Assembly: GCA_035389045.1 (NCBI GenBank)
Contig: DAOORA010000001.1
Location: 9,458 to 73,457, forward strand
Length of the DNA stretch: 64,000 nucleotides
Direction: 5' to 3'
From: Bacteroidales bacterium
GTDB lineage: Bacteria; Bacteroidota; Bacteroidia; Bacteroidales; CAIWKO01
Part shown: positions 22,540-36,705 of the stretch, one piece after another
How the letters are laid out: every line of letters begins with the position of its first letter
Numbering within the stretch: position 1 is the stretch's first letter
Notes under the pieces: model-generated
What the model was told of the DNA's origin: nothing
Database searches by the model: none
Seen by the model: the letters and a program-made list of their open reading frames with translations, nothing else
Position numbers and translations under genes: made by a program

Positions 22540-22786
22540 AGGGGAATCAAAAGGGAATTTAATGCCGGAGCTGTCAATCAGCCGGGCTAATTAGTCAATA
22601 ATATACGTTTCATTTTTTTCTTTCAACGTCTCTTCCAAATTATGAAAAAAAAGCCCATCGAGGCCACCATTGTATAGTGTGGCTGTTAATAGCGAAAAAT
22701 CATTAACAAGGTTCATAAAAAATGGTTTGGTTAAAATTAATATATTTTAAGCAGATATGAGGATAGTATTTGTCTTGATTCGATAT

Positions 22787-23005: not shown

Positions 23006-23012
23006 TTTGGTT

Positions 23013-23726: not shown

Positions 23727-23756
23727 AATCTTATCTTTTTATGAGACAAAATTAGG

Positions 23757-23785
23757 ATAGCAAAACGCAAAGGAAGTGTGGTTTG
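23757..23785 (-). promoter_or_regulatory. Shared dyad motif copy 1 (atagcaaaacgcaa-N-tgtggtttg), adjacent to a TAatTTTG -7 box
   Basis: One of four copies of ATAGCAAAACGCAA(N5-6)TG(C/T)GGTTT in the window. On the coding (minus) strand it reads ...TTGCGTTTTGCTATCCTAATTTTG, about 30 nt before the ATG at 23726. Confidence 0.5.
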
Positions 23786-24340
23786 TAATTAAGTTAAATG
23801 AGTGCAGAGTTGATTAAGTTAAATAAGTGCAGAGTTAAATAGTCAAATGGGGAGGATAGGGAGATCCGATAGCTATCGGATGAGAGATTAGGAGATTGGG
23901 AGATTAGTAGATTAGGTCAATAGGTCATCAGTCAATAGTCATCCGCCGCGGCGGAGTCATTAGGAGATTAGGAGATCCGTTAGCAATCGGTTGGGTAGTT
24001 GAGCGATTTAGTTAATTAAGTGCAGCGTTGATTAAGGGGAGAGGTACAAAAAATCAGCGTAAATCAGCGTAATCAGCGGGAGAAGAAAAGGAGAAAATTG
24101 CCCGCAGATAGCGCAGATTAACGCAGAAATGGAAAGGCATAAGTTGAATCAGAGGTATAATTAGGATTAAATAAGGGATTGGGAGATTGGGAGATTGGGA
24201 GATTAGGAGATTAGGAGATCGGGAGAATGGGAGAATAAGTCATTAGTCATTAGTCATTAGTCATCCGCCGCGGCGGAGTCATTAGTCATTAGGAGATTGG
24301 GAGATCCGATAGCTGTCGAATGGGAGATTAGTAGATTAGG
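23786..24340. repeat. Non-coding tract of short word repeats and perfect palindromes
   Basis: Tandem gggagatt/aggagatt octamers (24181-24236) and agtcatt heptamers. ccgccgcggcgg palindromes at 23943-23954 and 24265-24276. gggagatccgatagct(a/g)tcg(g/a)atg(a/g)gagattag occurs twice. taagttaaat(g/a)agtgcagagtt occurs twice. Confidence 0.85.
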
Positions 24341-24365
24341 AAGAAAAAGTTTTTATTAAATCCCT

Positions 24366-25391
24366 TCATTTTTTCTTTGATTTCTGTTTCACTTCTTTCT
24401 GAATCTTTTTAATGGTGTTGAGATAGGCTTCCTCAACAGGCGAAATCGTTTTTACCTGATATTTACGATACTCGGTCTCTGCTTTTTCTATTGCTTCTTC
24501 ATGGCTTATTTTTCCTGCATTTTGCAAGGTTCCCTTGCCATACATGGATGTAAATTTATCAAGCTCGGTTACCCAGTCGCTCATCGTCATGGCGGTATGC
24601 TCCATGGCTCTCATTTCAGCCAGATCAAAGAAGGCCGACACCATCCTGTTGAGCCTTGCCAGTTCATCTTTTTCCAGGTAATTTTTCGCTATTGAAATAT
24701 CTTTTTTTACCGGTAATGCTCCTGAAAAATTCGTTAACCCCATAAATTCTTTATCAGCATTGGCGCGCCGGTAAATTAGCTCTGCGGCTGTCTGCTCATT
24801 TACAGCATAATGCAGTTTGTTTTGAACGGTTTTGAAAAAAGCCAATGACTTTCTGCTTTGGGGGTCATAGTCTATGCTGGTCGCATATAAATCGAGAACT
24901 TGCCTGTATATAACCTTTTCGCTGCTGCGAATATCACGAATGCGGTCTAATAATTCGTGCCAGTAATTACCACCTCCAAGTTCCTTTAACCGCTCATCAT
25001 CCATAGTAAATCCTTTGATGATGTATTCTCTCAAACGTTGTGTTGCCCATTGCCGGAATTGCGTACCCCGCATTGATTTTACTCTATAACCAACGGAAAT
25101 TATTACATCCAGATTATAATATTTCACAGTAACATTTTGTGTCTTTCCTTCAACAGCGCCATGTTGAGTGGTATGTCGGAAATTCCGACACACCACTTTT
25201 TCGTCCAGTTCGTTTTCTTTAAAAATGTTTAGAATATGCTCTGTAATGGTTGATCTGCCTTTCTCAAAAAGGCTTGCCATTTGTTCCTGTGTTAACCATA
25301 CGGTTTCGTCTTCAATCGTAACGTTTAATTGTATTTTATCATCGTTCGTTTTGAAAAGTATAATTTCGGCAGGAAATTTCTTTTTTGTCAT
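24366..25391 (-). CDS. rhuM: RhuM family virulence-associated protein
   Basis: ETVWLTQEQMASLFEKGRSTITEHILNIFKENELDEKVVCRNFRHT...YYNLDVIISVGYRVKSMRGTQFRQWATQRLREYIIKGF is the characteristic RhuM core. Confidence 0.85.
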   Translation of the reverse strand: MTKKKFPAEIILFKTNDDKIQLNVTIEDETVWLTQEQMASLFEKGRSTITEHILNIFKENELDEKVVCRNFRHTTQHGAVEGKTQNVTVKYYNLDVIISVGYRVKSMRGTQFRQWATQRLREYIIKGFTMDDERLKELGGGNYWHELLDRIRDIRSSEKVIYRQVLDLYATSIDYDPQSRKSLAFFKTVQNKLHYAVNEQTAAELIYRRANADKEFMGLTNFSGALPVKKDISIAKNYLEKDELARLNRMVSAFFDLAEMRAMEHTAMTMSDWVTELDKFTSMYGKGTLQNAGKISHEEAIEKAETEYRKYQVKTISPVEEAYLNTIKKIQKEVKQKSKKK

Positions 25392-25487
25392 ATTGTTATC
25401 CTTTTTCTATTTCTGTTCAGTGCGAAGTTCGGAAACTTTGTACAAATGGTCAGCATTTATTGGGAAATTAAATTAAGAACCCTTATG

Positions 25488-25672
25488 CAAGGTTTTATGG
25501 TTGCTTTTTTTAACACAAAGTTCGACGCGGCGGACACAAAGTACAACACAAAGTCGCACAAAGTATACCTGACCGATGCCAATCGGGCCTGAACGCCTGC
25601 CTGCACTGCCGTTTCGGAATCACTGGCATGGTTTACTCCGGAATGGTGGCATACTTTGTTCCGGAATAGTCA
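25488..25672. repeat. Direct repeat copy A (about 185 bp)
   Basis: Aligns with 26106-26298. The core acctgaccgatgccaatcgggcctga.cgcctgcctgcactgccgtttcggaatcactggcat.gtttactccgga is nearly identical. Confidence 0.85.
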
Positions 25673-25673
25673 A

Positions 25674-25958
25674 TTTTTTGGGAGTCATTACAAAACTGTT
25701 TAACCCTGCTTGTTTTCTAAACCCCTCGAATTAGAGGGGTTTAAAATTAGTGTTGTAAATTAATTTCCAGAATCCAGATAGTTCAATAGTATTTCGGTTT
25801 CTCATCCAGTTTTGAATAATAGAATCCATATGTTCAGCATCTTTATGCCTTGCAATATCAGTTACTGAAATAAACTCAGCTTCGGGTGTTTTAAGAATCG
25901 CTATCTCTGTTCCGACTGCATTAATTTTATTGGTTTTTTCCATCTTTAACTGAAGCAT
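25674..25958 (-). pseudogene. KilA-N domain gene remnant (in-frame TAA plus 3' truncation by repeat copy A)
   Basis: MEKTNKINAVGTEIAILK...ISVTDIARHKD...IQNWMRNRNTIEL..FW...NTNFKPL, then stop, then the same frame continues FEGFRKQAGLNSFVMTPKK. KilA-N-type sequence is lost where repeat A begins. Confidence 0.75.
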
Positions 25959-26105
25959 TGGGTTAATACAATTTGAGAATTAACAATACCTCTGTTTGTT
26001 TTGTCGGATAGAGGTACGTCTTTCGCACCGGGGGAAAGGTCGTAACGGTCGAGTACATTAATAAAGAACTGATAAGAAAATTTCACAACTTTAAGAATTC
26101 TCATA

Positions 26106-26298
26106 CAAGGTTTTGTGGTTACTATTTTTAACACAACGTCACAAAGCGCACTACAAAGTCGCACGAAGTACACCACAAAGTCGCACAAAGTTAACCTGAC
26201 CGATGCCAATCGGGCCTGACCGCCTGCCTGCACTGCCGTTTCGGAATCACTGGCATAGTTTACTCCGGATGGTGGTATAATTTGCTCCGGAATAGTCA
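26106..26298. repeat. Direct repeat copy B (about 193 bp)
   Basis: See copy A. It abuts dyad motif copy 2 at its high-coordinate end. Confidence 0.85.
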
Positions 26299-26300
26299 TT

Positions 26301-26328
26301 ATAGCAAAACGCAATGCATTTGCGGTTT
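26301..26328 (-). promoter_or_regulatory. Shared dyad motif copy 2 (atagcaaaacgcaatgcatttgcggttt)
   Basis: Best palindrome of the four: AAAACGCAA-TGCAT-TTGCGGTTT. Confidence 0.45.
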
Positions 26329-26543
26329 AAAATTATTGGAAATAATTGTAAGGAAAAATTACGAAAAACGGGAATTACAGGAAGAAGCAAATTAACAAAA
26401 CAAAGAAGAAGAACAAGTGAATTGGTAAATGAAACAGAATAAAATATTACAATAGCAGGGTCTATGATTATAAAATAGAAATTATCTGCCAAGGATTATC
26501 AGATTAAAATGGCAGTGAAACAGTCTCTTCCAAATAGATAAAA

Positions 26544-27833
26544 TCATTTTACTTCGACTTGTTTTATTTCAAATTTAAAATTAGGAGAATAACTTTGGGA
26601 GATAGGATTGTATTCATCGGGAACAAACTGGACTTTGGGATAGATTAGCTGTGCTTTCATTTTTTCCTTGTTCTTGGGTTTTCTTATGAGACAATCCCTT
26701 TCAAGTTTTGCAATGTCAGCAAAAAGTATGTCGGTGACATTTTCAAGAATCTTCCATTTTGCATCTACAATTGTTATCAAATCATTTTCAAGAACAATAA
26801 AATCAGGTTCTGAAAAACGAGGATAATTTCCTTTTTTTGTAATGAGTTGGTATTCTTCAGATATTTCTTTTACGTTAAAAACTGCGCCATTTATAGTGTT
26901 AATTTTAAGATGATCATAAACTACCCATTCATATAAGTCAGAAGGATTGAAGAATAAGGCAATCATGTTTGGCAATTTCTGAACCTCGGAAGAATAATCT
27001 TCGCTTTTGTAATGTTCCAAACCAATAATGATTAGCAGTGCTTCAAGCACTTCTTTAAGTTCTTGATTTTTTCTGAAAAGTTTTACAATTTTATTGGTAA
27101 TAATATCCCTATCCCTAAAAATAAAGCCTTGTTTGACTTTGTATTTTTTATGAATACAGTTTAAAATGGAATTTGATTTTTGATGCAACAATTCTGATCC
27201 CGTGGTGAAATTGCAGATTTTATCTTTTTTAAACCGCTGTAATGCTTGTTCTGCAATCAAAGCAATTTTTGAGTAAGATTCGATTTCTTTTTTAATTTGG
27301 AAAACATTAGATTTGTCAATACTCAGTACATTGCGTTTAAGATCAATTCTGTTTTCTATTGACTGAGAAGAATAAGAAATGTGCCTGATTCGGGTTTTAT
27401 TGTGTTTGCGAAAAAACTTATCTAGAATATTTAAAGCATGTTCGTATTTGTAGCGGATAAATTCTTCAATTGTATTACTATTTCTTTCTTTAAAATCATT
27501 AAAAATCAAATCAACAATATTACCATTGATGCTTTTTTTATCAATTTCACTGTACTTATCTGATAACTCATAATACTTTGAAAAGAATTTGAAAAAGTTT
27601 TCTTCCTTTTTATTTTCTTCAATGTCTTTGTGGATTTTGGGGATGATAAAAAACTTTATAAATGATTCATCTGTTTTAAATTGATAATACCCAATATAAT
27701 TGTTGGCTGTTTTTTTTGAAATAAAATACAATTTTTTAATTGCGGAATCGGACAGGGTGATATTTTCCCTTTCCAGAAAATCCAGCACATCTTCATTCTC
27801 ATTAATGTAATATGTAGAAGAAGTTTCAGGCAT
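26544..27833 (-). CDS. McrC-like PD-(D/E)xK nuclease subunit
   Basis: C-terminal motif EPDFIVLENDLITIVDAKWK (PD...D-x-K). Overlaps the upstream McrB-like gene by 8 nt. 429 aa. Confidence 0.65.
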   Translation of the reverse strand: MPETSSTYYINENEDVLDFLERENITLSDSAIKKLYFISKKTANNYIGYYQFKTDESFIKFFIIPKIHKDIEENKKEENFFKFFSKYYELSDKYSEIDKKSINGNIVDLIFNDFKERNSNTIEEFIRYKYEHALNILDKFFRKHNKTRIRHISYSSQSIENRIDLKRNVLSIDKSNVFQIKKEIESYSKIALIAEQALQRFKKDKICNFTTGSELLHQKSNSILNCIHKKYKVKQGFIFRDRDIITNKIVKLFRKNQELKEVLEALLIIIGLEHYKSEDYSSEVQKLPNMIALFFNPSDLYEWVVYDHLKINTINGAVFNVKEISEEYQLITKKGNYPRFSEPDFIVLENDLITIVDAKWKILENVTDILFADIAKLERDCLIRKPKNKEKMKAQLIYPKVQFVPDEYNPISQSYSPNFKFEIKQVEVK

Positions 27834-29937
27834 TTTTCAGAAGGTCTCCAAATGCTTTTTTCTGTAAACGATCAATTATTTCTTTATAAGTGCCTTTTAG
27901 AATATCAAGTGATATACTAAATGGCAATGATTTTATCTCATTAAGTACCGGCTGAATTTCTGCTATTTCAATTTCTCTTATATCTTTAAATTCAGTTATA
28001 GCCTTTAACAGAGCTCTGCAAAATGAAGATTCATCCTTAACATTAATCCAATTTGCATGACCTATTATAAAACGATCAGGATGTATTTCCTTCGATGCAA
28101 AATGCTTTAAAATACTAGTATTGAACTTATCAAGAAAAGTCGCAACATCCTTTTCCTTTATTACACCTTTATAGTCAGGATACATCTCAATCAAATCAAA
28201 ACGTCTCAGCAGATTGTCTTCAATTATCTTTTTATCGTCACGATAATTGGAGGTACAGAAGAAATACAGATTGTCTGGAACTATGAGTTTTCGATATTTC
28301 GTTTCTGTGGCAACCAAGTAAGGAATTTTCACATAAAATATTTCTTTCTTTTTAAGTGATGTAAGCAACTCGAAAAATTCATCAATGTCCTTATATTCCT
28401 TGGTTGTGTCAATAAGTTTTTCATCAATAAGCTTTGTAATATTTGTTCTTTTTTCATCTTCTATAAGATAAATCAAGTCTCCAATTAATTCATTCAAACT
28501 GTTCTCCTGAATTTCTTCAAGAACAATAGCAAAAGGTTGGTAGGGTTTGGATATAGCTTCTTTCAGGTGGTGTAATATCAAACCTTGTTTTTCATGATAT
28601 TCAACCTGGCCCCGGGGTGATGATATGCCAATACCTTGCATTAAATCTGCATTTGATGATGCTGAATGAATATTTATTCGTAAAATGTTTGGATGCGTTA
28701 TTGAGTCAAACCCCAATTTTTTTAATAGGCTCACATTAATTAGCCGTGATTTTCCGGTACCTGGTACTCCTTTGAGTAAAATATTTTTATAAGGAAGACC
28801 AGGTTTACCATAAGGAGTAATATCAATTTTAAATGGTTCTTTGGGTTTCTCAAATTCTTGGGTCATTGTTTTTTCTTTGATTTCTTGATGTGTGTCAACT
28901 GAAGGGATGCTGTTATCAATGATTTTGACATCTGACAATTTGGTAAGGGCTTCTCCAATTTGGGATTCTATACTATCAATGTCAGCGGAATGTTTTGTGG
29001 AAACAGAATCGTCTACAAATTCATATGATTCAATAAATGAATCGCCTTCTTTTTGATAAGTTTTTTTTGAACCCTCACCGGACTTATAAGCAATATATAA
29101 CATTGGTCCGGATTTTGGAAAATATTCAAATACTGTTTTGAAATCGGAAAATAGATTATTGAAATTTTCAGCGTCACCATAAAAAACAATAAATCCGTCG
29201 GTATTTAAAACCTTATCAATTGTTGCCCTTACTTTAACAATATGTGTCTCGGTTCCTTTTTCCTTCGATTGTTTTGATTTATAAAAAACGTCATGGTAAT
29301 TGAATATTTTAATATTTTTTAAAATAGCAGCCAAGTCTGATTGCGACAATTCATCAGAATGAACTAATATTTTATGGCCCGAATATTTTACTTTTATTTT
29401 AGCGGTATCAACTCTAATTCCTTTCAAATAATCATCAAAAGAACCATCGAAAATAATAGATTTTTGTTTTTCGATTTTGGAGTCACCTTTTGTATAGGAA
29501 CCTCCTATCTGAGGATTAAAAATTACAACATCGGCTTTTTGTGATTTACCCCATTCAGACACATTAAGGAAATTTAAATTCGATAATTCCGCTTTACCCT
29601 TTGTGAATTCTGTAAGAACATCCTTATTCGATTCAATGTTGATGTCATTAAAGATGATTTTTTTAAATGAATCAATATTGTCCAACACTATATGTGATGT
29701 CAAATTACCGCTTCCAAAAGCGATGTCAAGAAATGTGTATTTGCTGAAATCAATTTTACTGAAAAAATCTATTTTTTTTAATAAATATCCAAAGAAAAGC
29801 GCCCTATCTTTAGCAATATCTTCGGGCACATAATAATATTCCTTGCAAACAGGATTACTGTTTTGTTTATTTGGATTTGACGGTTTATTATTAAAGTTAT
29901 TTATTTGTTGAAAAACCTTGTTTTTATCTGTCGCCAT
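27826..29937 (-). CDS. McrB-like AAA+ NTPase with an N-terminal class I methyltransferase-like domain (degenerate motif IV)
   Basis: C-terminal half: Walker A LLKGVPGTGKS, Walker B-like FAIVLEEIQEN, and FFCTSNYRDDKKIIEDNLLRRF (compare McrB NTAD...RRRF). N-terminal half: motif I FLDIAFGSGNL, IFNDIN, and motif IV position VIFNPQIGG instead of NPP(Y/F). Confidence 0.7.
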   Translation of the reverse strand: MATDKNKVFQQINNFNNKPSNPNKQNSNPVCKEYYYVPEDIAKDRALFFGYLLKKIDFFSKIDFSKYTFLDIAFGSGNLTSHIVLDNIDSFKKIIFNDINIESNKDVLTEFTKGKAELSNLNFLNVSEWGKSQKADVVIFNPQIGGSYTKGDSKIEKQKSIIFDGSFDDYLKGIRVDTAKIKVKYSGHKILVHSDELSQSDLAAILKNIKIFNYHDVFYKSKQSKEKGTETHIVKVRATIDKVLNTDGFIVFYGDAENFNNLFSDFKTVFEYFPKSGPMLYIAYKSGEGSKKTYQKEGDSFIESYEFVDDSVSTKHSADIDSIESQIGEALTKLSDVKIIDNSIPSVDTHQEIKEKTMTQEFEKPKEPFKIDITPYGKPGLPYKNILLKGVPGTGKSRLINVSLLKKLGFDSITHPNILRINIHSASSNADLMQGIGISSPRGQVEYHEKQGLILHHLKEAISKPYQPFAIVLEEIQENSLNELIGDLIYLIEDEKRTNITKLIDEKLIDTTKEYKDIDEFFELLTSLKKKEIFYVKIPYLVATETKYRKLIVPDNLYFFCTSNYRDDKKIIEDNLLRRFDLIEMYPDYKGVIKEKDVATFLDKFNTSILKHFASKEIHPDRFIIGHANWINVKDESSFCRALLKAITEFKDIREIEIAEIQPVLNEIKSLPFSISLDILKGTYKEIIDRLQKKAFGDLLKNA

Positions 29938-29940
29938 ACC

Positions 29941-31302
29941 TTAGCCTTTTAAAGTGTTTTGAATAATAAACTGCGCGTGATTTAAATATAATACTTTTAA
30001 ATGCAAACATAGTTGATTCATCTTTGTAAGCCTTTCAAAGTATTGTTCGAAAAATTGAGAGATTATTTTTTGAATTTCTATTGAGTTATACTTGCTATTA
30101 GAAATTGGAAAATTCACTTTGTACATCTTTATTACACCTGAATTTGCTCTTGGGTCTTTTGATTGAAAGAACATATTTCTGTTAAATAAATCCTTCATTG
30201 TATAATAAAAGTATTTAATAAAAACATCTGTTTTATTAGCTTCTTTAATTAACGCAGCATAATGATGACCGCCTACAACAAAGGGTTTGTTGTGATAAAA
30301 TGCTTTAGAACCCGCATCATTATCTTTGTTAAATGATACACTTTCCTCTTTTATGATGTCACTTTCTTTGGCTGGTTTTATATTTGGAACTGATTCAAGT
30401 GACCCTGTGTAAACATTATATTCACCTCTGTTTTTTGAATTATTGAAATATGATTTTGAGTAATCAGAACTACCACCAGATATATTAGTAAAATTATCTA
30501 TTAGCTTTTCTTCGAAATTAATGTCTTCCAATTTTAATTCAATACCTGATTTCTCACAGAAAGAATTAAATCTTTTGCATGCAGAAGATTGTTTGGAAAA
30601 AACATGCGGGATGATTATTTTATCAATATTTTCAATACACGACAGAATGAAATCAACCCTTTCAATATTTTTCTTATTTAAATTATTGAAATATTCAAAA
30701 AAGTCAACCAAGATTTTCTGAATTTTAAAAGAAGTATAAATATCATCAATAGATTTAGGAATGGTAATGTATCTTTGTTCTTCTGAACCTTTTGTCAAAT
30801 TGCCAAATTCCTTTTTCCCTTCAAGAGTGCGATATATCTCTTTTAAGCTATAGTAAATATATTTAACATCAAAAGCATCTTTAATAACAAGAGCTAAAAT
30901 ATTTTGATTAGTACACATTGGCAAACTATTAATTGCGAGTAATCCTTTACTGGCAGATGCCATTGCTATTAAAATACTATTTGATGGAACAAGCCAAGTC
31001 GAACTTGAATCGTATCCCTTTTTAGTAATAATCTTGGAATATTCAGTAATTATTCCTTTTTCAAATATTTCTTTATTTATATCCCGCCATCCAAAATAGT
31101 TTTTATTATCAACTAAAGAAAAATCGGACGCCCAATATTCAGGAACCTCTGTCTTCGGAGTTCCACCACTTTTTAAAGGCGTTTTGGCAATGTCCTTTAA
31201 TTGAACTTGTGAAAATTTTAAATGAGTAATATCGAAGTCTGGATACTTACCAGTTCTTTGCTGAAACAGTTTAAAGCGATCAATTATTTGCTTATTTACC
31301 AT
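29941..31302 (-). CDS. hsdS: Type I restriction-modification specificity subunit
   Basis: Two target-recognition halves (SGGTPKT...YW; ISGGSSDY), each followed by a conserved helix (QKILVDFFEYF and QKIISQFFEQYF). Overlaps hsdM by 7 nt. Confidence 0.75.
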   Translation of the reverse strand: MVNKQIIDRFKLFQQRTGKYPDFDITHLKFSQVQLKDIAKTPLKSGGTPKTEVPEYWASDFSLVDNKNYFGWRDINKEIFEKGIITEYSKIITKKGYDSSSTWLVPSNSILIAMASASKGLLAINSLPMCTNQNILALVIKDAFDVKYIYYSLKEIYRTLEGKKEFGNLTKGSEEQRYITIPKSIDDIYTSFKIQKILVDFFEYFNNLNKKNIERVDFILSCIENIDKIIIPHVFSKQSSACKRFNSFCEKSGIELKLEDINFEEKLIDNFTNISGGSSDYSKSYFNNSKNRGEYNVYTGSLESVPNIKPAKESDIIKEESVSFNKDNDAGSKAFYHNKPFVVGGHHYAALIKEANKTDVFIKYFYYTMKDLFNRNMFFQSKDPRANSGVIKMYKVNFPISNSKYNSIEIQKIISQFFEQYFERLTKMNQLCLHLKVLYLNHAQFIIQNTLKG

Positions 31303-32879
31303 GCTAAATCAACTAAATTTAACTCATCTAGAATTTTTTTCATTTCCGATTCAATTGCCTCAATATCATGCACTGTAACACTTTCTTTATTACCCACTTC
31401 CTTATTGATATTTATTCCAAAGCAATTTGCAGGATTAATATTTTTACAAATATAGGGATGTTCTTTCTTTTCGTTAAAATATTTCACGATCTTTTTAATT
31501 TCAGCATCTGAGTAGGCATTTTTCATTTTATCCTTTGACGCAGGGTGTGGGCCAAACATAGGCTCAACCGAATTATCTGCTTTAAGAATTTTAATATAAT
31601 CTGATTGTTGAGAATCGAAAAACCAAATGTGTGTGCTAATATCTGTATTGGTAAACATAGCGCTAGGTTGTTCCAGAATGGCTTTTACGATTTTCAGTTC
31701 AAATATTTTATTTCGAATTTTAGATTCAGAGGAAGTGCTGTTCCCTGTTGATGAAAGAGTGCTGGAGCTTATGATAGCGGCCAAAGCTCTCTTTTTTCTC
31801 TTTTTTTCGTTCAACATCATGTTTATAATATGCTGCATAAACAAGAACTGTCCATCACTTTTCTTAGGTGTTACGATATTCTTTCCATTTTTTACAACAA
31901 AAAAATGTGAATCTTTCGATTGCAAGTTTGCCAACACTTTATCATAATCCTGTTTCCAGTCAACCCCAAAAGGAGGATTTGAAATTATAAAATCGAAACT
32001 ATCCTCACCGTTTATACCATTGTAAAAGGCCGGTGCTGTTAGCGTGTTCCCATATGCGATGATGTTTTTTATTCCTTGTACATTACCATCAAGTGAAGTT
32101 ATTTCAAGAAATATCTTTGACAGCATCCATATTTGACCATTGCATTCCTGGCCATATACTTCAATTTTAGCATCTTTTATTTTTTTATGAAAATAATGAG
32201 CCGATTCCATTATCATGCTACCTGTGCCGGATGTAGGATCGTAAATTGCAATAGTGTCATTTACTTTAATATGTTTGAAAGCCATTTCGCATATCAAATG
32301 AATTATAGACTTCTGAGTAAAATGCTGCCCGGTATGGTCACCTGTAAGTTTATTTTTCATGCGAGCAACGGTTTTCTCATAGAGATCCTTGTATTCTTCC
32401 TTTGGAAAACCAATGAAATTTGCTTTGTACGTATATATATCAAGAACCATTTCAAGATAATTATTGGGTAGTTCCTCAATATAGGAATCCAAAGGGAAAA
32501 CTTTTGGATGGTTAATATACGCTAGAATGTTTTCACTTTCGCCGGGATTGTATTTTGCATCCTGTTTGAAATATTTCAAATTGCACCCCAGGTTTTTAAT
32601 ATCTGCAATGATATTTTTGAATGTTTGTTTGGTGTCGGTGGCTTTATATTTTGCATACAAACTATCAGGCAGCCCAAATTGTTTTTTATGTTCAAAATTA
32701 AACTTGAGTTTTTTATTATCAATAAGGAGTTTTAGTGCCATAAATGCCATAATGCGTTGGTCATATGTTGCTGCAGGAACACCAATACCTCTTATAATAT
32801 CAGCATAAGCCCAATAGAAGTCGCCTAACTTTTTTCCCTTTTCAAAAAGTTCTAAGGTGGCTTTTTTGTTTTTTTTCAT
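31296..32879 (-). CDS. hsdM: Type I restriction-modification N6-adenine DNA methyltransferase subunit
   Basis: HsdM_N-like N-terminus (FYWAYADIIRG...FMALKLLID), motif I YDPTSGTGSMIMES, motif IV IISNPPFGVDW. Confidence 0.85.
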   Translation of the reverse strand: MKKNKKATLELFEKGKKLGDFYWAYADIIRGIGVPAATYDQRIMAFMALKLLIDNKKLKFNFEHKKQFGLPDSLYAKYKATDTKQTFKNIIADIKNLGCNLKYFKQDAKYNPGESENILAYINHPKVFPLDSYIEELPNNYLEMVLDIYTYKANFIGFPKEEYKDLYEKTVARMKNKLTGDHTGQHFTQKSIIHLICEMAFKHIKVNDTIAIYDPTSGTGSMIMESAHYFHKKIKDAKIEVYGQECNGQIWMLSKIFLEITSLDGNVQGIKNIIAYGNTLTAPAFYNGINGEDSFDFIISNPPFGVDWKQDYDKVLANLQSKDSHFFVVKNGKNIVTPKKSDGQFLFMQHIINMMLNEKKRKKRALAAIISSSTLSSTGNSTSSESKIRNKIFELKIVKAILEQPSAMFTNTDISTHIWFFDSQQSDYIKILKADNSVEPMFGPHPASKDKMKNAYSDAEIKKIVKYFNEKKEHPYICKNINPANCFGININKEVGNKESVTVHDIEAIESEMKKILDELNLVDLAW

Positions 32880-33172
32880 GGTCTCTTCTTTTTTTGGTAT
32901 TCAATTTTTTGTTCGGCCAAGTGTAATGCATCGGTTCCAAAATCTTCTTCAGCTACTAATTTATATACCTTATCGGCAAGCCAAAGTGTCTGTAGATATG
33001 ATTGCTTAACTTTAAGAATCTGACTTATTTTTTTTAGATGATTTCTGTTAATAGGTTTTTCACCCTTTTCTACTTTACTAATAAATGCTGCATCTACTTC
33101 AATGAATCCCCCCAATTCCCGTTGTGACATTCCCATTTCTTCACGTATCAGTTTAATTTTTTCACCGAGCAT
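32876..33172 (-). CDS. XRE-family HTH regulator (controller-like), first gene of the R-M operon
   Basis: MSQRELGGFIEVDAAFISKVEKGEKPIN is a helix-turn-helix. ATGA overlap with hsdM. Confidence 0.8.
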   Translation of the reverse strand: MLGEKIKLIREEMGMSQRELGGFIEVDAAFISKVEKGEKPINRNHLKKISQILKVKQSYLQTLWLADKVYKLVAEEDFGTDALHLAEQKIEYQKKKRP

Positions 33173-33190
33173 AATTGACTAATTTTATAC

Positions 33191-33208
33191 TTGTCTAATA
33201 TTGGACAA
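33191..33208. promoter_or_regulatory. Candidate operator (inverted repeat TTGTCT-N6-GGACAA) upstream of the XRE gene
   Basis: ttgtctaatattggacaa lies 19-36 nt upstream of the ATG at 33172. Confidence 0.4.
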
Positions 33209-33299
33209 ATATATAAAATTTTATAAGAAAAAAAATTATTTAAAATTTTATTTGTTAGATTTGTTGAAATGGATGTTGTAATAATTGAATAAGATATGA

Positions 33300-33500
33300 G
33301 TGTCGGGGAAAATGTCAGGGAAAATATTAAAATTGATTACAGCAAATAAATGGATCACTATACCCGAAATGACTGCAATTATTGAAGTATCTGAGTGTTC
33401 AATTGAACGAAATATCCAAAAATTGCAGTCGGATAACAAATTGAAAAGAGAAGGCGCTGCCAAAGGGGGTTATTGGTCAATATTGCCGGGGGAAAATTAA
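33300..33500 (+). CDS. Small winged-helix DNA-binding protein
   Basis: KILKLITANKWITIPEMTAIIEVSECSIERNIQKLQSDNKLKREGAAKGGYWSI resembles the C-terminal wHTH of AAA-4/AlbA_2-type regulators. Start is either GTG 33300 or ATG 33312. Confidence 0.55.
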   Translation: MSGKMSGKILKLITANKWITIPEMTAIIEVSECSIERNIQKLQSDNKLKREGAAKGGYWSILPGEN

Positions 33501-33519
33501 TACATAAAATTAATTTATA

Positions 33520-33879
33520 ATGCAAAAAAAAAATCTTTTAAAGTTAGATTTAAGCGAATACAAAAAGAAAATAAAAGCGCTGCCCTTAACAAAGATTAAT
33601 AAATTTGATAATTTACTATCAGACCTTGCAAACTATGCTTATGACACGTATGAGTATGTAATAGAATTACCGGACAACATAGAGAATATTTCAAAAGACC
33701 AAGCGTCAAAAATGATAGAAGATTTGAATGAACTTAATAAGCAGGTAACACCACTGATGGACATTTTGTGTGATATGGATTATGAGAGCAAATACATGGA
33801 CAGGGCAACAGAAGTATTAGGAGGTATTGAAGATGATATCCCCGAACTTATTAAATTGCTGAGCCGTAAGTTAAAATAG
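33520..33879 (+). CDS. Hypothetical protein (119 aa), paralog of 36304-36693
   Basis: Collinear similarity: LDLSEY/LDFSEF, KFDNLL/RFENFL, DILCDMDYESKYMDR/DILYKINYDSKNMDR. An A10 tract covers codons 2-5. Confidence 0.55.
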   Translation: MQKKNLLKLDLSEYKKKIKALPLTKINKFDNLLSDLANYAYDTYEYVIELPDNIENISKDQASKMIEDLNELNKQVTPLMDILCDMDYESKYMDRATEVLGGIEDDIPELIKLLSRKLK

Positions 33880-33896
33880 ATGTTAACGGGATTTAT

Positions 33897-35012
33897 TTAT
33901 TGAGGCGGACAATCAAAAAGTCTCTCTTTGCAAAATCCGAAAAGTGCAGGATCGCCTAGGTTGTCTTTCAAGGAATATGAACATGTTGTACATCTGAACC
34001 AACTGAAAGATTCTTTCTTTTTGAAAATGATATCATCATACTCTTTTTTATAAATTACAAGGGTTTCATGCCCGCAGCAGGGACATTTCTTTATTGCGTG
34101 ATAATATTTGTATTTTGTTTCACATTCAGCATATCTGATGAATCTTCCAATTGGATTTTCATAATACGGCTCATGATATAATATGTTATTTTTTAAAGTT
34201 AAGTCCAGCCCATAAGCCGCACGACCCAATTCTTTAAGGTGCGCCAATTTAAGAAGTTTCACGCGGAGTTCATCAATTTTGGCATCATCATAAAAATCAT
34301 CGGTGTCAAATTTAATAGTATTGATCCCGTCAATTATTTTAATACCGGTAAATGTCTCAAAGTAATGCGGTTTGAAGCCATTAAGAATTGTTTTATCGTT
34401 TTCGAATACTTTTACAACCAAAGGAATAAGTTTTTGTGAAACCAGATAATCGAAGAGTAAAATATTAGGAATGGTTTTCCCATTATGCATTATCCTGTTG
34501 CGCCATCGGGCAAGATAATCCAATGAATCATCAATTAAAAACCTGAATTGATTTGCGACAGCATATTGAGTTTTGTGAAGATTCTTATCATAATACCTTA
34601 CGGCTTCTTTAAAACGTTCATAAGCACTGTTAAACTCTACAGATTCCATTCTTTCTGCCTCTGCCTCATTGTTGCAATATTTTATAGCATCCTTTTCTTT
34701 GCGAGGAAATTTTACTGCAAGAAAAGGGTTAATGCGATTTAAAATATCTTTTAACAGAAGTTCAAAAAACCTGTGAAAACTCAATATGGTTTGAACAATG
34801 CAGTCTGAATTATAAAAATCAAATGAAAGTGTATCGTGCTTCCACATTTTAAAATCAAGAAGCAAATGATACGAGTTTTTTATGTTTTTTACAGTTTGAA
34901 AATAATTAATGAACGCATCATCCAATGATTGATAGTATAGCGGAGGCGTATGCTCTGCATCTTTTGACAACTGACATTCGTTTTTTTTAAAGAAATCTGA
35001 GTTTGTATCCAT
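33897..35012 (-). CDS. HEPN-domain protein with C-terminal zinc ribbon
   Basis: Rx4H motif in LARWRNRIMHNG. C-terminal CPCCGH...CTTCSY is a four-Cys ribbon. 371 aa. Confidence 0.55.
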   Translation of the reverse strand: MDTNSDFFKKNECQLSKDAEHTPPLYYQSLDDAFINYFQTVKNIKNSYHLLLDFKMWKHDTLSFDFYNSDCIVQTILSFHRFFELLLKDILNRINPFLAVKFPRKEKDAIKYCNNEAEAERMESVEFNSAYERFKEAVRYYDKNLHKTQYAVANQFRFLIDDSLDYLARWRNRIMHNGKTIPNILLFDYLVSQKLIPLVVKVFENDKTILNGFKPHYFETFTGIKIIDGINTIKFDTDDFYDDAKIDELRVKLLKLAHLKELGRAAYGLDLTLKNNILYHEPYYENPIGRFIRYAECETKYKYYHAIKKCPCCGHETLVIYKKEYDDIIFKKKESFSWFRCTTCSYSLKDNLGDPALFGFCKERLFDCPPQ

Positions 35013-35064
35013 TTTATATCGTGATTATTTTGTTATCTTAAAGTTTCATTAATCAATGATGAGT

Positions 35065-35154
35065 CCACTCCGAAAAGTATGATTTTCTGCGACTTCCCAT
35101 TGGGATTAAGGACAAAAAGTCGCAGGATAAGATAAACGAAGCTTTTCGGAGTGG
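35065..35154 (-). promoter_or_regulatory. Long nested hairpin in the leader of the HEPN gene
   Basis: Perfect 13-bp arms ccactccgaaaag / cttttcggagtgg enclose 9-bp arms ctgcgactt / aagtcgcag. Located between the promoter-like motif (35303-35330) and the ATG at 35012. Confidence 0.5.
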
Positions 35155-35302
35155 GTTCAATGATAGTATTCATGTGTAAATAATTCTTAGAAGTCAATTC
35201 AAATCTGTATTGAAAAAATACCAGGCAGGTAAAATCATCCCAATAACATTGTTAACGACCTCCTGCCCGGCTAAGTAACAAAACGACACCAGCAAATTTA
35301 TT

Positions 35303-35330
35303 ATAGCAAAACGCAATGTATTTGCTTTTT
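35303..35330 (-). promoter_or_regulatory. Shared dyad motif copy 3, followed on the minus strand by a TAAATTTG -7 box
   Basis: atagcaaaacgcaatgtatttgcttttt. The minus strand reads TTGCGTTTTGCTATAATAAATTTG. Confidence 0.5.
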
Positions 35331-35336
35331 AAAAAA

Positions 35337-35996
35337 TTATCCAGATTCAAGTTCTATATAGGTTTTACCACCCAGGGATTTGATATAATCAATAAGATAG
35401 CCCGTATTAATAAGGCCGTGCAGGTATTCCACCTGTTCGAGAAGGTCGCAATAGTGGCATTTTTTTACTGTAATTTCAATTGTTTTCATTTTCTCACTCC
35501 GGCAGTCATCGCCACATCTGTGCCTTACCGCTTCTTCCGGAAGCTTAAAATCAAAATCGACTGAAGTTGCGTCTGCATATTTTAACTCGGCAAAATCGAG
35601 ACAAGTATAGTCCCGTATCATAAGATCATCACCAACTTCTTTTTTAATGAATTTTTTAGTTTCAAATGAATAACGATCACCAATAAAATCAATACCGGCA
35701 CCTTTCTGTAAAAAATAATCAAAAAGTTTACGGGAAGATTTATCAACAGCGAGAGAAAGAAAAGTAGGCGCATAATGCTTGATATTACAATCAAGGGGTA
35801 AATCCTTATCAATAATGACATCGAATATTTTAACATAGAAATCAAAATCAAAATCGTTATAATGACCGTCAATAATGTTAATAAGAAAGTTTTGTATCCT
35901 ACGCCTTGATGCATTAACAATGAATTTTTCCCAATCAGCAAGGAAGGCATCAAAATCTTTTGATTTAATGTGTTTTACTAAAGTATAGGTTATCAT
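35337..35996 (-). CDS. Hypothetical protein, possible ankyrin-like repeat (219 aa)
   Basis: TFLSLAVDKSSRKLFDYFLQKGAGIDF resembles an ankyrin repeat. Last gene of a four-gene operon (ATGA overlap). Confidence 0.4.
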   Translation of the reverse strand: MITYTLVKHIKSKDFDAFLADWEKFIVNASRRRIQNFLINIIDGHYNDFDFDFYVKIFDVIIDKDLPLDCNIKHYAPTFLSLAVDKSSRKLFDYFLQKGAGIDFIGDRYSFETKKFIKKEVGDDLMIRDYTCLDFAELKYADATSVDFDFKLPEEAVRHRCGDDCRSEKMKTIEITVKKCHYCDLLEQVEYLHGLINTGYLIDYIKSLGGKTYIELESG

Positions 35997-36304
35997 AGTT
36001 TTTTATTATCCCTTTTAGGTTTATTCATTTTATTAAGTTTCCTTATGAGTTCAAATGTTGGTTTAGGAAAAAGCTCATAGTCGCACAAAAGATGCAACCA
36101 TGCCTGGGTTACCGCCTGAGGATCATCGAATAATAATTCTACGGATTTGATTTTGGCAAGGTTGTTATCTGCAAAACGGTGTAAGTGCAAATATTTGCCT
36201 GTATTCAAATCCATAAAAGCATCCACACTGGGGTTGTGATAGCCGGTGAGGAAATTGCAAAGGATTCTTTCAGCGGAACCAGTTATGTAATTTTTGTTGT
36301 TCAT
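35993..36304 (-). CDS. Hypothetical protein (103 aa)
   Basis: Clean ORF with overlapping stop/start on both sides. Confidence 0.45.
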   Translation of the reverse strand: MNNKNYITGSAERILCNFLTGYHNPSVDAFMDLNTGKYLHLHRFADNNLAKIKSVELLFDDPQAVTQAWLHLLCDYELFPKPTFELIRKLNKMNKPKRDNKKL

Positions 36305-36693
36305 TAATCATCATTAAGAGCTTGTCGTTTTTCCAAGGTATTATTAATGTACTTAATGAATTTATCCGATTCATCTTTCAATATTTCAAGCATGTTAATG
36401 ATACGGTCCATGTTTTTACTGTCGTAATTAATTTTATATAGAATATCAAGCGCAGATGAAGACTGGCTATAAATCCGGCCAAGGTCAACAAGCATTTGCT
36501 TCGATTTGTTTTTTGTTACAGGAGATATGACATAGGGCAAAGTATCAATAAGATAATCGTGTGTGTCACCAATTTTATTCTGAAAATTGAACAGAAAATT
36601 CTCAAAGCGAATACCTCCAGCGATTCTGATATGTTTTAATGACCTGATAAATTCTGAAAAGTCAAGTGCCAGGTGTTCGGAATATGGTTTCAT
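36304..36693 (-). CDS. Hypothetical protein (129 aa), paralog of 33520-33879
   Basis: See 33520-33879. Confidence 0.55.
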   Translation of the reverse strand: MKPYSEHLALDFSEFIRSLKHIRIAGGIRFENFLFNFQNKIGDTHDYLIDTLPYVISPVTKNKSKQMLVDLGRIYSQSSSALDILYKINYDSKNMDRIINMLEILKDESDKFIKYINNTLEKRQALNDD

Positions 36694-36705
36694 AAAAATG
36701 ATTTA

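What the first reader, a model, noticed from the sequence alone, without database searches (positions are those of the whole stretch)
26544..33208. Type I M+S module coupled to a McrB-like/McrC-like pair in place of HsdR: candidate chimeric restriction system
Seen in sequence: five minus-strand genes are packed with 4-nt, 7-nt and 8-nt overlaps and one 3-nt gap.
1. XRE HTH regulator (98 aa).
2. HsdM (YDPTSGTGSM, NPPFGVDW).
3. HsdS (two TRDs, repeated QKI..FF helices).
4. A 703-aa McrB-type AAA+ protein (GVPGTGKS, IVLEEIQEN, TSNYRDD...LLRRF).
5. A 429-aa PD-(D/E)xK protein (EPDF...IVDAKWK) resembling McrC.

No SF2-helicase/nuclease HsdR-like ORF exists anywhere in the window. The whole block is much more AT-rich than the flanks.

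Established knowledge: type I systems need HsdR for translocation and cleavage. McrBC is an NTP-driven translocating nuclease that normally targets modified DNA. LlaJI-type systems show that McrB/McrC-like proteins can act as the restriction arm of a methyltransferase-protected system.

Inference: the McrBC-like motor and nuclease may replace HsdR in an HsdM/HsdS-guided system. I do not recognise that architecture as a described type.
Basis: partly seen in the sequence, partly recalled or inferred. Interest (0 to 1): 0.88.

Follow-up and report, generated by a model that had tools for sequence, protein, structure and literature searches.

The report
Type I methylase guiding McrBC nuclease
A five-gene operon pairs a Type I DNA methylase and its specificity subunit with a McrBC-type motor and nuclease instead of the usual HsdR. 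The same cassette recurs across bacterial phyla, so it is probably a self-contained restriction system of a kind not yet described in detail.

Summary
Five tightly packed minus-strand genes encode an XRE controller, HsdM, HsdS, a 703-aa McrB-type AAA+ protein and a 429-aa McrC-type nuclease. No HsdR is detectable anywhere in the window.

The same HsdM-HsdS-McrB*-McrC* cassette, always without HsdR, occurs in Bacteroidota, Campylobacterota and Proteobacteria. It is often cargo of Tn7-like transposons or sits directly between housekeeping genes.

The main new finding is in the first about 305 residues of the McrB-like protein. They form a diverged N6-adenine-methyltransferase-like domain with SAM-binding motifs kept and motif IV changed from NPPF to NPQI. 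This domain is found only in McrB relatives that follow hsdM-hsdS (16 of 16). It is absent from relatives that sit beside Type II-like methylases. In some loci it is a separate gene.

I infer that this domain couples the motor-nuclease to the HsdM/HsdS recognition complex, so that unmethylated HsdS-defined sites are cut.

This is a Type I-guided variant of the methylase-coupled McrBC systems LlaI, LlaJI and BsuMI. No function has been tested. A 2025 Klebsiella study reports active restriction by hsdMS without hsdR next to mcrBC; whether that system is homologous is unknown.

The parts
33191..33208 (-). C-box-like palindrome TTGTCCAATATTAGACAA (8 of 9 pairs), 19 nt upstream of the XRE start codon. 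It overlaps a Bacteroidetes -7-like element, TATATTTG, at 33206-33213. Putative operator of the controller protein.
   Evidence: Read directly from the sequence. Related palindromes of the form TTGTCCTAAATTGGACA lie upstream of the XRE genes of cassettes L005 and L043. The operator role is inferred.
32876..33172 (-). XRE-family HTH protein, 98 aa. Probably the controller (C) protein of the operon. It overlaps hsdM by 4 nt.
   Evidence: Pfam HTH_3, 2.5e-9. PADLOC HTH_VI 2.9e-12 and R-M 'Control_protein' 4.2e-9. An XRE gene in the same position occurs in L005 and L043.
31296..32879 (-). HsdM, 527 aa. A Type I N6-adenine DNA methyltransferase with motif I YDPTSGTGSM and motif IV NPPFGVDW intact.
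   Evidence: Pfam N6_Mtase 6.7e-42. PADLOC MTase_I 3e-51. It belongs to a discrete subfamily that is 56-63% identical across phyla.
29941..31302 (-). HsdS, 453 aa. A specificity subunit with two target-recognition regions and two conserved helices (QKILVDFFEYF and QKIISQFFEQYF).
   Evidence: PADLOC Specificity_I 1.3e-20 with two stretches, and other models matching residues 31-212 and 258-420. HsdS proteins of other cassettes are only 25-34% identical, as expected for variable recognition domains.
29023..29937 (-). N-terminal domain of the 703-aa protein (residues 1-305). A diverged amino-methyltransferase-like Rossmann domain with no target-recognition domain of its own. Motif I is DIAFGSGNL, motif II is ND, and motif IV is degenerate, NPQI. 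Proposed adaptor or reader that couples the motor to HsdM/HsdS.
   Evidence: AF2 pLDDT is about 90 in this region. Foldseek hits: M.BseCI 6.3e-6, HsdM 3lkd 1.7e-5, BpuSI and TrmM. Invariant residues in 16 cassettes: D71, G75, N97, D98, N141, P142. Present only in HsdMS-linked relatives. Only 57 representative clusters among 1.84 billion proteins.
28843..29022 (-). Low-confidence, probably flexible linker (residues about 306-365) between the N-terminal domain and the AAA+ domain.
   Evidence: AF2 pLDDT is below 50 for residues 308-320 and 336-362. Its length varies among homologs, and L012 has an insertion here.
27826..28842 (-). McrB-type AAA+ NTPase domain (residues about 366-703). Walker A is GVPGTGKS, Walker B is VLEEIQ, the McrB signature NxxD is N564-Y-R-D567, and an arginine pair lies in LLRRF.
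   Evidence: NCBIfam McrB 2.2e-10. PDB 6hz4 1.1e-8. Foldseek 6ut4 and 6hz4 at 2e-11. These residues are invariant in 51 homologs.
26544..27833 (-). McrC-type protein, 429 aa. N-terminal finger region plus a C-terminal PD-(D/E)xK nuclease with D344, D357 and K359 (EPDF...IVDAKWK). It overlaps the mcrB-like gene by 8 nt.
   Evidence: AF2 pLDDT 84. Foldseek TgMcrC 6ut7_G 5.5e-11 and EcMcrC 6hz4_M 2.1e-10. 19 of 57 homologs hit PF10117. D344, D357, K359 and E302 are invariant in 57 homologs.
26310..26324 (-). Terminator-like hairpin followed by a T run, 220 nt downstream of the mcrC-like stop codon. Likely the end of the operon. It is part of a 46-nt element repeated four times in the island.
   Evidence: Terminator scan. 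Repeat family D4. The scan found no more sites than expected by chance, so this is weak evidence.

Best explanation
This is a self-contained restriction-modification operon in which a Type I methyltransferase core is coupled to a McrBC-type motor-nuclease that takes the place of HsdR.

Shown by sequence and structure comparison:
- HsdM has intact catalytic motifs.
- HsdS has two recognition regions.
- The 703-aa protein has a McrB-type AAA+ domain with all catalytic signatures.
- The 429-aa protein is McrC-like with an intact PD-(D/E)xK site.
- The 703-aa protein starts with a diverged N6-adenine-methyltransferase-like domain that has no recognition domain of its own.

Inferred mechanism:
1. 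HsdM2-HsdS methylates a bipartite site and so marks host DNA.
2. The methyltransferase-like N-domain of the McrB-like protein docks on the HsdS (or HsdS-HsdM)-DNA complex in the way an HsdM catalytic domain would. It either senses or depends on the unmethylated state of the target adenine.
3. The AAA+ domains assemble into a nucleotide-bound hexamer that binds McrC.
4. NTP-driven translocation from unmodified sites ends in double-strand cleavage by McrC, as in McrBC, LlaJI and LlaI.
5. The XRE protein acts as a controller that delays restriction after the operon enters a new cell.
For: 1. Conserved synteny. HsdM-HsdS-McrB*-McrC* lies on one strand in Bacteroidota (window, Algoriphagus L005, Saprospiraceae L015, L043), Campylobacterota (Sulfurovum, Sulfurimonas, Halarcobacter, Malaciobacter, Aliarcobacter, Sulfurospirillum) and Vibrio parahaemolyticus. 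The hsdS/mcrB* junction overlaps or abuts in 7 of 8 loci measured.

2. No HsdR. There are no hits in the window or in 24 cassette and HsdM-subfamily loci with a locally built HsdR HMM. By contrast, 27 of 32 control loci of 10 kb or more that carry generic hsdM have HsdR. All flanking ORFs of 600 aa or more in the cassette loci checked are housekeeping genes, transposition genes or proteins without a Pfam hit; none is HsdR-like.

3. The unit is mobile on its own. It is Tn7-like cargo in L012, L014, L123 and L124, sits in an integrase island in L011, and is inserted tightly between IF-2 or AlaRS genes in L025 and L030.

4. The methyltransferase-like N-domain tracks HsdMS exactly. It is present in all 16 McrB* proteins that follow hsdM-hsdS, and absent from all AAA+-only relatives. 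Six of these (L020, L036, L037, L039, L040, L045) sit next to C5 or DPPY-type methylase genes.

5. The N-domain is a separable module. In L047, L048, L050, L123 and L124 it is a stand-alone gene, followed by a divergent McrB-like P-loop protein and a McrC-like nuclease.

6. The cassette HsdM is a discrete subfamily, 56-63% identical across phyla and then a gap to 34% or less. HsdS is only 25-34% identical, as expected for diversifying specificity.

7. Catalytic residues of the McrB-like and McrC-like proteins are invariant.

8. An XRE controller with a conserved palindromic box, typical of true R-M operons, is present.

9. There is precedent. LlaJI, LlaI and BsuMI use McrB/McrC-like proteins to restrict unmodified, methylase-protected sites (PMC12707154; bioRxiv 10.64898/2026.08.31.748284). 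K. pneumoniae NUH66 shows SAM-dependent, site-specific, hsdS-dependent restriction without any HsdR and with mcrBC adjacent (PMC12456054).
Against: - Nothing here is experimental. Restriction, methylation and protein contacts are all inferred.
- The N-domain is only weakly similar in sequence to the cassette HsdM (hhalign probability 21%, E=1e-3). No complex model could be made, so docking on HsdS is a hypothesis.
- The McrB N-domain of canonical systems reads modified bases. A methyltransferase-like pocket could in principle read m6A rather than A.
- The genomes are mostly metagenome bins, so an hsdR elsewhere cannot be excluded.
- The loci are phylogenetically related, so the counts are not independent events.
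- A few loci break the pattern. L034 and L045 have the subfamily HsdM but no HsdS and a different McrB N-domain. L033 is degraded.
- It is not known whether the Klebsiella system is homologous. Its McrBC was recognised by DefenseFinder as a standard Type IV system, whereas PADLOC does not recognise the pair here.
Confidence: 0.68

Rival explanations
1. Two independent systems happen to be adjacent. One is an orphan Type I methyltransferase (HsdM+HsdS) with an epigenetic or protective role. The other is a stand-alone, modification-dependent Type IV McrBC whose N-terminal domain reads a modified base.
For: In E. coli K-12, mcrBC lies next to hsdRMS without functional coupling (own knowledge). 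Bell et al. note frequent McrBC/Type I co-location (PMC11090510). Canonical McrB N-domains are modified-base readers.
Against: - The co-occurrence is strict in both directions.
- The hsdS/mcrB* junction overlaps or abuts in 7 of 8 loci measured across phyla.
- The N-domain is found only in this context, in 57 clusters among 1.84 billion proteins.
- The HsdM subfamily is discrete.
- The four or five genes move together as one unit.
Confidence: 0.1
2. It is an ordinary Type I system whose HsdR is encoded elsewhere in the genome. The McrB/McrC-like pair is an accessory or second-line module.
For: Type I systems with unlinked or shared hsdR genes exist (own knowledge). Only 64 kb of this genome and about 10 kb either side of each relative could be inspected.
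Against: - There is no HsdR in 24 related loci, against 27 of 32 control loci.
- The cassette travels on Tn7-like elements and islands without hsdR, which would leave a transferred copy without restriction.
- The HsdM subfamily was never seen with HsdR.
Confidence: 0.07
3. It is a methylation-marked exclusion or abortive system that does not work by classical cleavage of unmodified sites. For example, the N-domain could be an active second methyltransferase. Alternatively, the motor could block replication as in BREX, or attack host DNA once methylation is disturbed.
For: The SAM-binding motifs of the N-domain are conserved. Weak PADLOC and NCBIfam hits of HsdM and HsdS to MADS components mad2 and mad5 show that methylase-plus-specificity modules serve non-classical defence systems.
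Against: - Motif IV lacks the second proline and the aromatic residue (NPQI or NPT) in all cassettes.
- The McrC nuclease triad is invariant.
- The MADS hits cover only the generic methylase and specificity parts, and no other mad genes are present.
- The closest characterised relatives (LlaJI, LlaI, BsuMI) are cleaving restriction systems.
Confidence: 0.1

Closest known systems
LlaJI (Lactococcus lactis and Helicobacter pylori): a methylase-protected R-M system with McrB-like R1 and McrC-like R2
   Same: A McrB-type AAA+ NTPase with an N-terminal targeting domain plus a McrC-type PD-(D/E)xK nuclease act as the restriction arm of an operon that also encodes the protecting methyltransferases. 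The target is unmodified DNA. AAA+-only relatives of the protein studied here sit in just such contexts (L036, L037, L039, L040).
   Different: LlaJI has two Type II-like methyltransferases, and its R1 binds the site directly through a B3-like domain (PMC12707154, PMC7680126). Here the methylase is a Type I HsdM with a separate HsdS. The N-terminal domain is methyltransferase-like and has no DNA-recognition domain of its own.
LlaI and BsuMI: 'non-canonical McrBC' three-gene restriction modules (R1 DNA-binding, R2 AAA+, R3 nuclease) with methylases and a controller protein
   Same: Both have a separate targeting module, a McrB-like motor and a McrC-like nuclease, with site-specific action, accompanying methylase(s) and a controller protein (LlaI.C). 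The split variants found here (adaptor, P-loop protein, nuclease in L047, L048, L050, L123, L124) have the same three-part logic. The BsuMI pair YdiS/YdjA (9a5m) is among the structural hits for both proteins.
   Different: LlaI.R1 is an ERCC4-like two-domain DNA-binding protein (bioRxiv 10.64898/2026.08.31.748284), not a methyltransferase fold. The methylases are Type II-like and there is no HsdS.
Classical Type I R-M (EcoKI, EcoR124I)
   Same: HsdM with NPPF and SAM motifs. HsdS with two recognition regions and conserved helices. Operon organisation, and HsdS diversification between otherwise similar cassettes. An NTP-driven translocating restriction arm is expected.
   Different: No HsdR (SF2 helicase plus nuclease) is present. 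The motor is a hexameric AAA+ of the McrB family, the nuclease is a separate McrC protein, and coupling is presumably through a pseudo-methyltransferase domain.
Canonical Type IV McrBC (E. coli K-12, T. gammatolerans)
   Same: AAA+ fold, Walker motifs, NxxD signature and arginine pair. McrC finger plus PD-(D/E)xK nuclease with the same D...D-x-K spacing. Adjacent, overlapping genes.
   Different: Canonical McrB N-domains (DUF3578/SRA, YTH, EVE) bind modified bases, and the system has no cognate methylase. Here the N-domain is methyltransferase-like and a cognate methylase and specificity subunit are always present.
K. pneumoniae NUH66 'Type I-like' system (Oo et al. 2025, PMC12456054)
   Same: hsdM and hsdS without any hsdR in a complete genome, with a mcrBC cluster immediately adjacent. 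Restriction is active, SAM-dependent, site-specific, hsdS-dependent and ArdB-sensitive. The authors could not identify the restriction subunit.
   Different: The gene order differs, with mcrBC upstream. That McrBC was recognised by DefenseFinder as a standard Type IV system. Homology to the proteins here could not be tested, because no sequences were available and there were no matches in the E. coli or plasmid collections.

Membership tests
Type I restriction-modification system | HsdM: gamma-class N6-adenine methyltransferase with SAM motif and NPPF/Y motif | tested here: met
   PF02384 at 6.7e-42. The motifs YDPTSGTGSM and NPPFGVDW are present.
Type I restriction-modification system | HsdS: specificity subunit with two target-recognition domains | tested here: met
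   PADLOC Specificity_I at 1.3e-20 with two stretches. There is no Pfam Methylase_S hit for the window protein, but homologous cassettes have PF01420.
Type I restriction-modification system | HsdR: SF2 (DEAD/ResIII) translocase fused to a PD-(D/E)xK nuclease, normally linked to hsdMS | tested here: not met
   No HsdR-like ORF is present in the window or in 24 related loci. The rest of the genome was not testable.
Type IV McrBC | McrB: AAA+ NTPase with Walker A/B, the NxxD signature and an arginine finger | tested here: met
   N564-Y-R-D567 and R578/R579 are invariant.
Type IV McrBC | McrC: finger domain plus PD-(D/E)xK nuclease, encoded next to mcrB | tested here: met
   The genes overlap by 8 nt.
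Type IV McrBC | Modification-dependent targeting: an N-terminal modified-base reader (DUF3578/SRA, YTH, EVE) and no cognate methylase | tested here: not met
   The N-domain is methyltransferase-like, and a cognate HsdM/HsdS is always present. Actual substrate preference is not testable here.
Methylase-coupled non-canonical McrBC R-M (LlaJI, LlaI, BsuMI) | A McrB-like motor and McrC-like nuclease in one operon or locus with protecting methyltransferase(s) | tested here: met
   AAA+-only relatives lie beside C5 or DPPY-type methylase genes.
Methylase-coupled non-canonical McrBC R-M (LlaJI, LlaI, BsuMI) | An autonomous site-specific DNA-binding module (B3-like domain in LlaJI.R1, ERCC4-like protein LlaI.R1) | tested here: not met
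   The N-domain has a methyltransferase fold without a recognition domain. The LlaI.R1 fold is ERCC4-like. Recognition here is presumably supplied by HsdS.
Methylase-coupled non-canonical McrBC R-M (LlaJI, LlaI, BsuMI) | Restriction of unmodified DNA that is blocked by the cognate methylation | not testable with these tools
   This needs phage, plasmid and methylome assays.
MADS (methylation-associated defence system) | Eight-gene mad1-mad8 set, including kinase and ATPase components | tested here: not met
   There are only partial, sub-threshold hits of HsdM to mad2/MAD2 (30 bits against a cut-off of 720) and of HsdS to mad5. No other mad genes are present.

The most novel reading that the evidence does not exclude
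This is a distinct class of restriction-modification system. A Type I specificity subunit guides a hexameric McrB-type AAA+ motor and McrC nuclease through a dedicated pseudo-methyltransferase adaptor. The adaptor occupies an HsdM-like position on HsdS and reads the methylation state of the target adenine. HsdR would then be one of at least two interchangeable restriction engines for the HsdM/HsdS platform. The unexplained 'HsdR-less but active' Type I-like systems, such as the one in K. pneumoniae NUH66, would gain a concrete candidate mechanism.
Probability: 0.45. Interest if true: 0.82.

Novelty: new variant of a known kind. Interest (0 to 1): 0.72.

Why it matters
Type I systems are defined by HsdR. 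'Orphan' hsdMS pairs are routinely annotated as non-restricting methylases, and the McrB/McrC-like pair here is missed by PADLOC and mostly by Pfam.

If the cassette restricts, several things follow:
- A class of defence systems is being miscalled in genome surveys.
- The HsdM/HsdS recognition platform is shown to be modular with respect to its nuclease engine.
- A methyltransferase fold has been re-used as an adaptor or methylation sensor.
- The open question left by the Klebsiella study, where the missing restriction subunit is, gains a directly testable hypothesis.
- It would give a programmable route, through HsdS, to recruit a McrBC-type motor to chosen sequences.

Tried and rejected
- PADLOC scan of 34 flanking large ORFs as a pseudo-alignment. 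The summary shows only the 25 most frequent families, so it could not answer whether any HsdR was present. I replaced it with Pfam on individual ORFs and a locally built HsdR HMM.
- Search for the family in plasmids (tblastn with McrB* and HsdM) and in complete E. coli genomes (blastn with the Vibrio cassette). These gave no match, or only an unrelated AAA ATPase.
- Supplementary data of the Klebsiella paper. None was held, so homology of that system could not be tested.
- Recent duplication of the cassette HsdM as the origin of the N-domain. hhalign aligns motifs I and IV in register but with only 21% probability. I rejected a close relationship and kept only the shared fold.
- MADS membership, suggested by the mad2 and mad5 hits. 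Rejected because the hits are partial and far below cut-off, and no other mad genes are present.
- LlaI.R1/BsuMI.R1 as homologs of the stand-alone adaptor. Rejected because LlaI.R1 is ERCC4-like.
- Sequence-only searches of the 429-aa protein and its family profile against PDB gave nothing. Only Pfam hits of its homologs and the fold comparison identified it as McrC.
- Literature searches for a described HsdMS-McrBC hybrid or a methyltransferase-like McrB N-domain found none.
- No integrase or flanking direct repeat was found for the AT-rich island.

Full report
**1. The observation**

The junctions are a 4-nt overlap, a 7-nt overlap, a 3-nt gap and an 8-nt overlap. All quoted motifs are in the translations.

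GC content is 28-34% over the operon against about 40-48% in the flanks. The AT-rich stretch runs from about 21 to 38 kb and begins at a tRNA-Arg gene. The host is a Bacteroidota metagenome bin (GCA_029561235.1) with many T9SS-sorted proteins.

**2. What the genes are**

- XRE is an HTH_3 protein that also matches R-M 'control protein' models.
- HsdM matches N6_Mtase at 6.7e-42 and PADLOC Type I methyltransferase at 3e-51.
- HsdS has no Pfam hit but matches many PADLOC Type I specificity models in two separate halves.
- Residues about 375-703 of the 703-aa protein are a McrB-type AAA+ domain. Evidence: NCBIfam McrB 2.2e-10, E. coli McrB in PDB 1.1e-8, and an AlphaFold2 model (mean pLDDT 86) whose best structural matches are the T. 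gammatolerans and E. coli McrB hexamers at 2e-11.
- Walker A, Walker B, the NxxD signature (N564-Y-R-D567) and the RR pair are invariant in 51 homologs.
- The 429-aa protein has no direct family or PDB sequence hit. However, 19 of its 57 homologs match PF10117 McrBC. Its model (pLDDT 84) matches McrC of T. gammatolerans and E. coli at 5.5e-11 and 2.1e-10 over most of its length.
- D344, D357 and K359 (PD...DAK) are invariant.

**3. No HsdR**

None of the window ORFs of 500 aa or more is HsdR-like. I built an HsdR HMM from 29 proteins found next to generic hsdM genes in metagenome contigs. Three of them were confirmed by Pfam as HSDR_N, ResIII and T1R_D3.

The HMM has no hit in the six-frame translation of the window or in 24 related cassette and HsdM-subfamily loci. 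It does find HsdR in 27 of 32 control loci of at least 10 kb.

**4. The cassette is conserved and self-contained**

Gene neighbourhoods of homologs show the same order, HsdM-HsdS-McrB*-McrC*, on one strand. It occurs in:
- Bacteroidota: Algoriphagus, a Saprospiraceae bin
- Campylobacterota: Sulfurovum, Sulfurimonas, Halarcobacter, Malaciobacter, Aliarcobacter butzleri, Sulfurospirillum
- Vibrio parahaemolyticus
- several metagenome contigs

The hsdS/mcrB* junction overlaps or abuts in seven of eight loci measured. The exception, L015, carries an inserted gene.

The unit is cargo of Tn7-like transposons (L012, L014, L123, L124) and sits in an integrase island (L011). Elsewhere it lies tightly between housekeeping genes such as those for IF-2, AlaRS or GidA.

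The cassette HsdM proteins are 56-63% identical to the window's across phyla (57-64% by local pairwise alignment). HsdS is only 25-34% identical, the usual signature of diversifying specificity.

**5. The reverse test**

A metagenome scan seeded with the cassette HsdM alignment returned eight loci at 51-62% identity. It then jumped to 34% or less, which is generic Type I methylases. All six high-identity loci with downstream sequence carry a McrB*-related gene. None of the 72 low-identity loci does. The HsdM subfamily and the McrB*/McrC* pair therefore imply each other.

**6. The new element: a methyltransferase-like N-domain**

Residues 1-305 of the 703-aa protein are modelled with high confidence. 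They match N6-adenine DNA methyltransferases: M.BseCI 6.3e-6, the Type I HsdM 3lkd 1.7e-5, BpuSI and TrmM. Pfam sees nothing in this region.

Sixteen cassettes share these invariant residues:
- D71 and G75 (DxxFGSGNL, motif I)
- N97-D98 (motif II)
- N141-P142 (motif IV)

Motif IV reads NPQI, or NPT in two loci, instead of NPP(F/Y/W). The domain has no target-recognition domain. Its relation to the cassette HsdM is only at fold level (hhalign probability 21%, with motifs I and IV in register).

An exhaustive phmmer search of 1.84 billion representative proteins finds only 57 clusters with this domain. It is always N-terminal, in proteins of about 600-810 aa (fused) or about 370-425 aa (stand-alone).

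Its distribution is the strongest argument for function. It is present in all 16 McrB* proteins that follow hsdM-hsdS. It is absent from every AAA+-only relative.
- Six of those relatives sit beside C5 or DPPY-type methylase genes: L020, L036, L037, L039, L040 and L045, which is an LlaJI-like context.
- In L026 and L031 no methylase gene was identified.
- L034 and L045 carry the subfamily HsdM without HsdS, and L033 is degraded.

In L047, L048, L050, L123 and L124 the N-domain is a separate gene. It lies between hsdS and a divergent McrB-like P-loop protein, which is followed by a McrC-like nuclease with a PDF...DAKYK motif. It therefore behaves as a portable adaptor.

**7. Mechanism**

Shown:
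- The methylase motifs are intact.
- HsdS is two-part.
- The McrB and McrC catalytic signatures are intact.
- The N-domain has a methyltransferase fold with SAM-motif conservation and a degenerate catalytic motif.
- The genes are strictly co-inherited.
- HsdR is absent locally.

Inferred:
- HsdM2-HsdS methylates a bipartite site.
- The N-domain docks on HsdS, or on HsdS-HsdM, at unmethylated sites.
- The AAA+ hexamer with McrC then translocates and cleaves.
- The XRE protein is a controller. A palindrome, TTGTCCAATATTAGACAA (33191-33208), overlaps a -7-like TATATTTG. It is conserved as TTGTCCTAAATTGGACA upstream of the XRE genes of L005 and L043.

I put about 0.68 on the general statement that the pair is the restriction arm of an HsdMS-guided system. 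I put about 0.45 on the specific adaptor or reader role of the N-domain.

**8. Comparison with what is known**

Methylase-coupled McrBC-type restriction is established for LlaJI (R1 with a B3-like DNA-binding domain). It is also established for LlaI and BsuMI, which have a separate R1 DNA-binding protein, an R2 motor, an R3 nuclease and a controller protein (PMC12707154; PMC7680126; bioRxiv 10.64898/2026.08.31.748284). LlaI.R1 is ERCC4-like, so the targeting module here is different.

Bell et al. 2024 noted McrBC branches associated 'surprisingly' with predicted DNA methyltransferases. They deferred them to a later paper (PMC11090510).

Oo et al. 2025 showed SAM-dependent, site-specific, hsdS-dependent and ArdB-sensitive restriction in K. 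pneumoniae NUH66. That strain has hsdMS, no hsdR and an adjacent mcrBC. The authors left the restriction subunit unidentified (PMC12456054). I could not test whether that system is homologous to this one.

Nine literature searches found no description of an HsdM/HsdS-McrBC cassette or of a methyltransferase-like McrB N-domain. The library does not hold most subscription-journal papers.

**9. Verdict**

I rate it a new variant of a known kind: a Type I-guided member of the methylase-coupled McrBC systems, with a previously undescribed pseudo-methyltransferase adaptor.

Caveats:
- There are no experiments.
- Most loci are metagenomic and phylogenetically related.
- ORFs in fetched loci were called with a simple script.
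- The HsdR HMM comes from one cluster of HsdR proteins, although Pfam checks of large flanking ORFs agree with it.
- The rest of each genome is unseen.

Noticed in passing
window 21308-38000: The AT-rich block is wider than the operon. It runs from about 21.3 kb, starting right at tRNA-Arg(acg) 21308-21382, to about 38 kb. Besides the operon it holds a GIY-YIG gene, RhuM and several ORFs with no family hit. No integrase or flanking direct repeat was found.
   Followed up: partly
window 23743-23788, 26287-26332, 35289-35334, 37485-37530: Four copies of a roughly 46-nt element (ATAGCAAAACGCAA.G.A..TGCGGTTT). On the minus strand it forms a hairpin followed by a T run. One copy lies just downstream of the mcrC-like gene, so it may be a repeated terminator between gene modules of the island.
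   Followed up: no
window 23880-24344 and 25535-25642 / 26162-26269: Arrays of an 8-nt unit (GGGAGATT and variants) lie in the intergenic region next to RhuM. There is also a 108-nt direct repeat (94% identity) 627 nt apart, between RhuM and the mcrC-like gene.
   Followed up: no
window 24366-25391 (-); L008 7772-8608: A RhuM-family gene (PF13310 at 5e-108; PADLOC candidate PDC-S05) lies 1.1 kb downstream of the operon on the same strand. In the Sulfurovum cassette a RhuM gene is inserted between hsdM and hsdS.
   Followed up: no
L047 9552-13338, L048 11916-15643, L050 3185-6836, L123 7920-11634, L124 9001-12697: Split five-gene variants. The methyltransferase-like domain is a stand-alone protein of 377-424 aa. 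It is followed by a P-loop protein of about 345-379 aa (GQPNTGKS) that is only weakly McrB-like (E=1.6e-6 with filters off), and then by a McrC-like protein of about 465-483 aa with PDF...DAKYK. None of the three tested in L048 has a significant Pfam hit.
   Followed up: partly
L034 1267-9381; L045 506-4251; L049 8845-15579: Mosaic loci carry the cassette-type HsdM but a different continuation. L034 has HsdM, a Schlafen/AlbA_2-HATPase_c_4 protein and a McrB* with another N-domain. L045 has HsdM, a C5-methylase-like gene and a McrB* with another N-domain. L049 has HsdM, two unassigned ORFs (293 and 349 aa), an AAA+-only McrB* and McrC*.
   Followed up: no
L012 14628-16316, L014 13961-15661, L018 14526-16244, L019 14339-16015: In the Arcobacter-type loci a conserved ORF of about 560-570 aa lies on the opposite strand directly after the long (about 725 aa) McrC-like gene. 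The L012 copy has no Pfam hit. It may be another cargo or defence gene, or a part of the system.
   Followed up: no
window 33897-35012 (-): A 371-aa ORF just upstream of the operon has no Pfam, PHROG or PADLOC hit. Its C-terminal Cys-rich region is faintly similar to the Lar restriction-alleviation family (TIGR03655, E=0.012, below cut-off).
   Followed up: no
window 10249-20209: There is a cluster of lipid or secondary-metabolite genes. It includes two AAT-family proteins and a 1289-aa protein that combines MMPL, acyltransferase and SAM-methyltransferase domains. It is unrelated to the finding.
   Followed up: no
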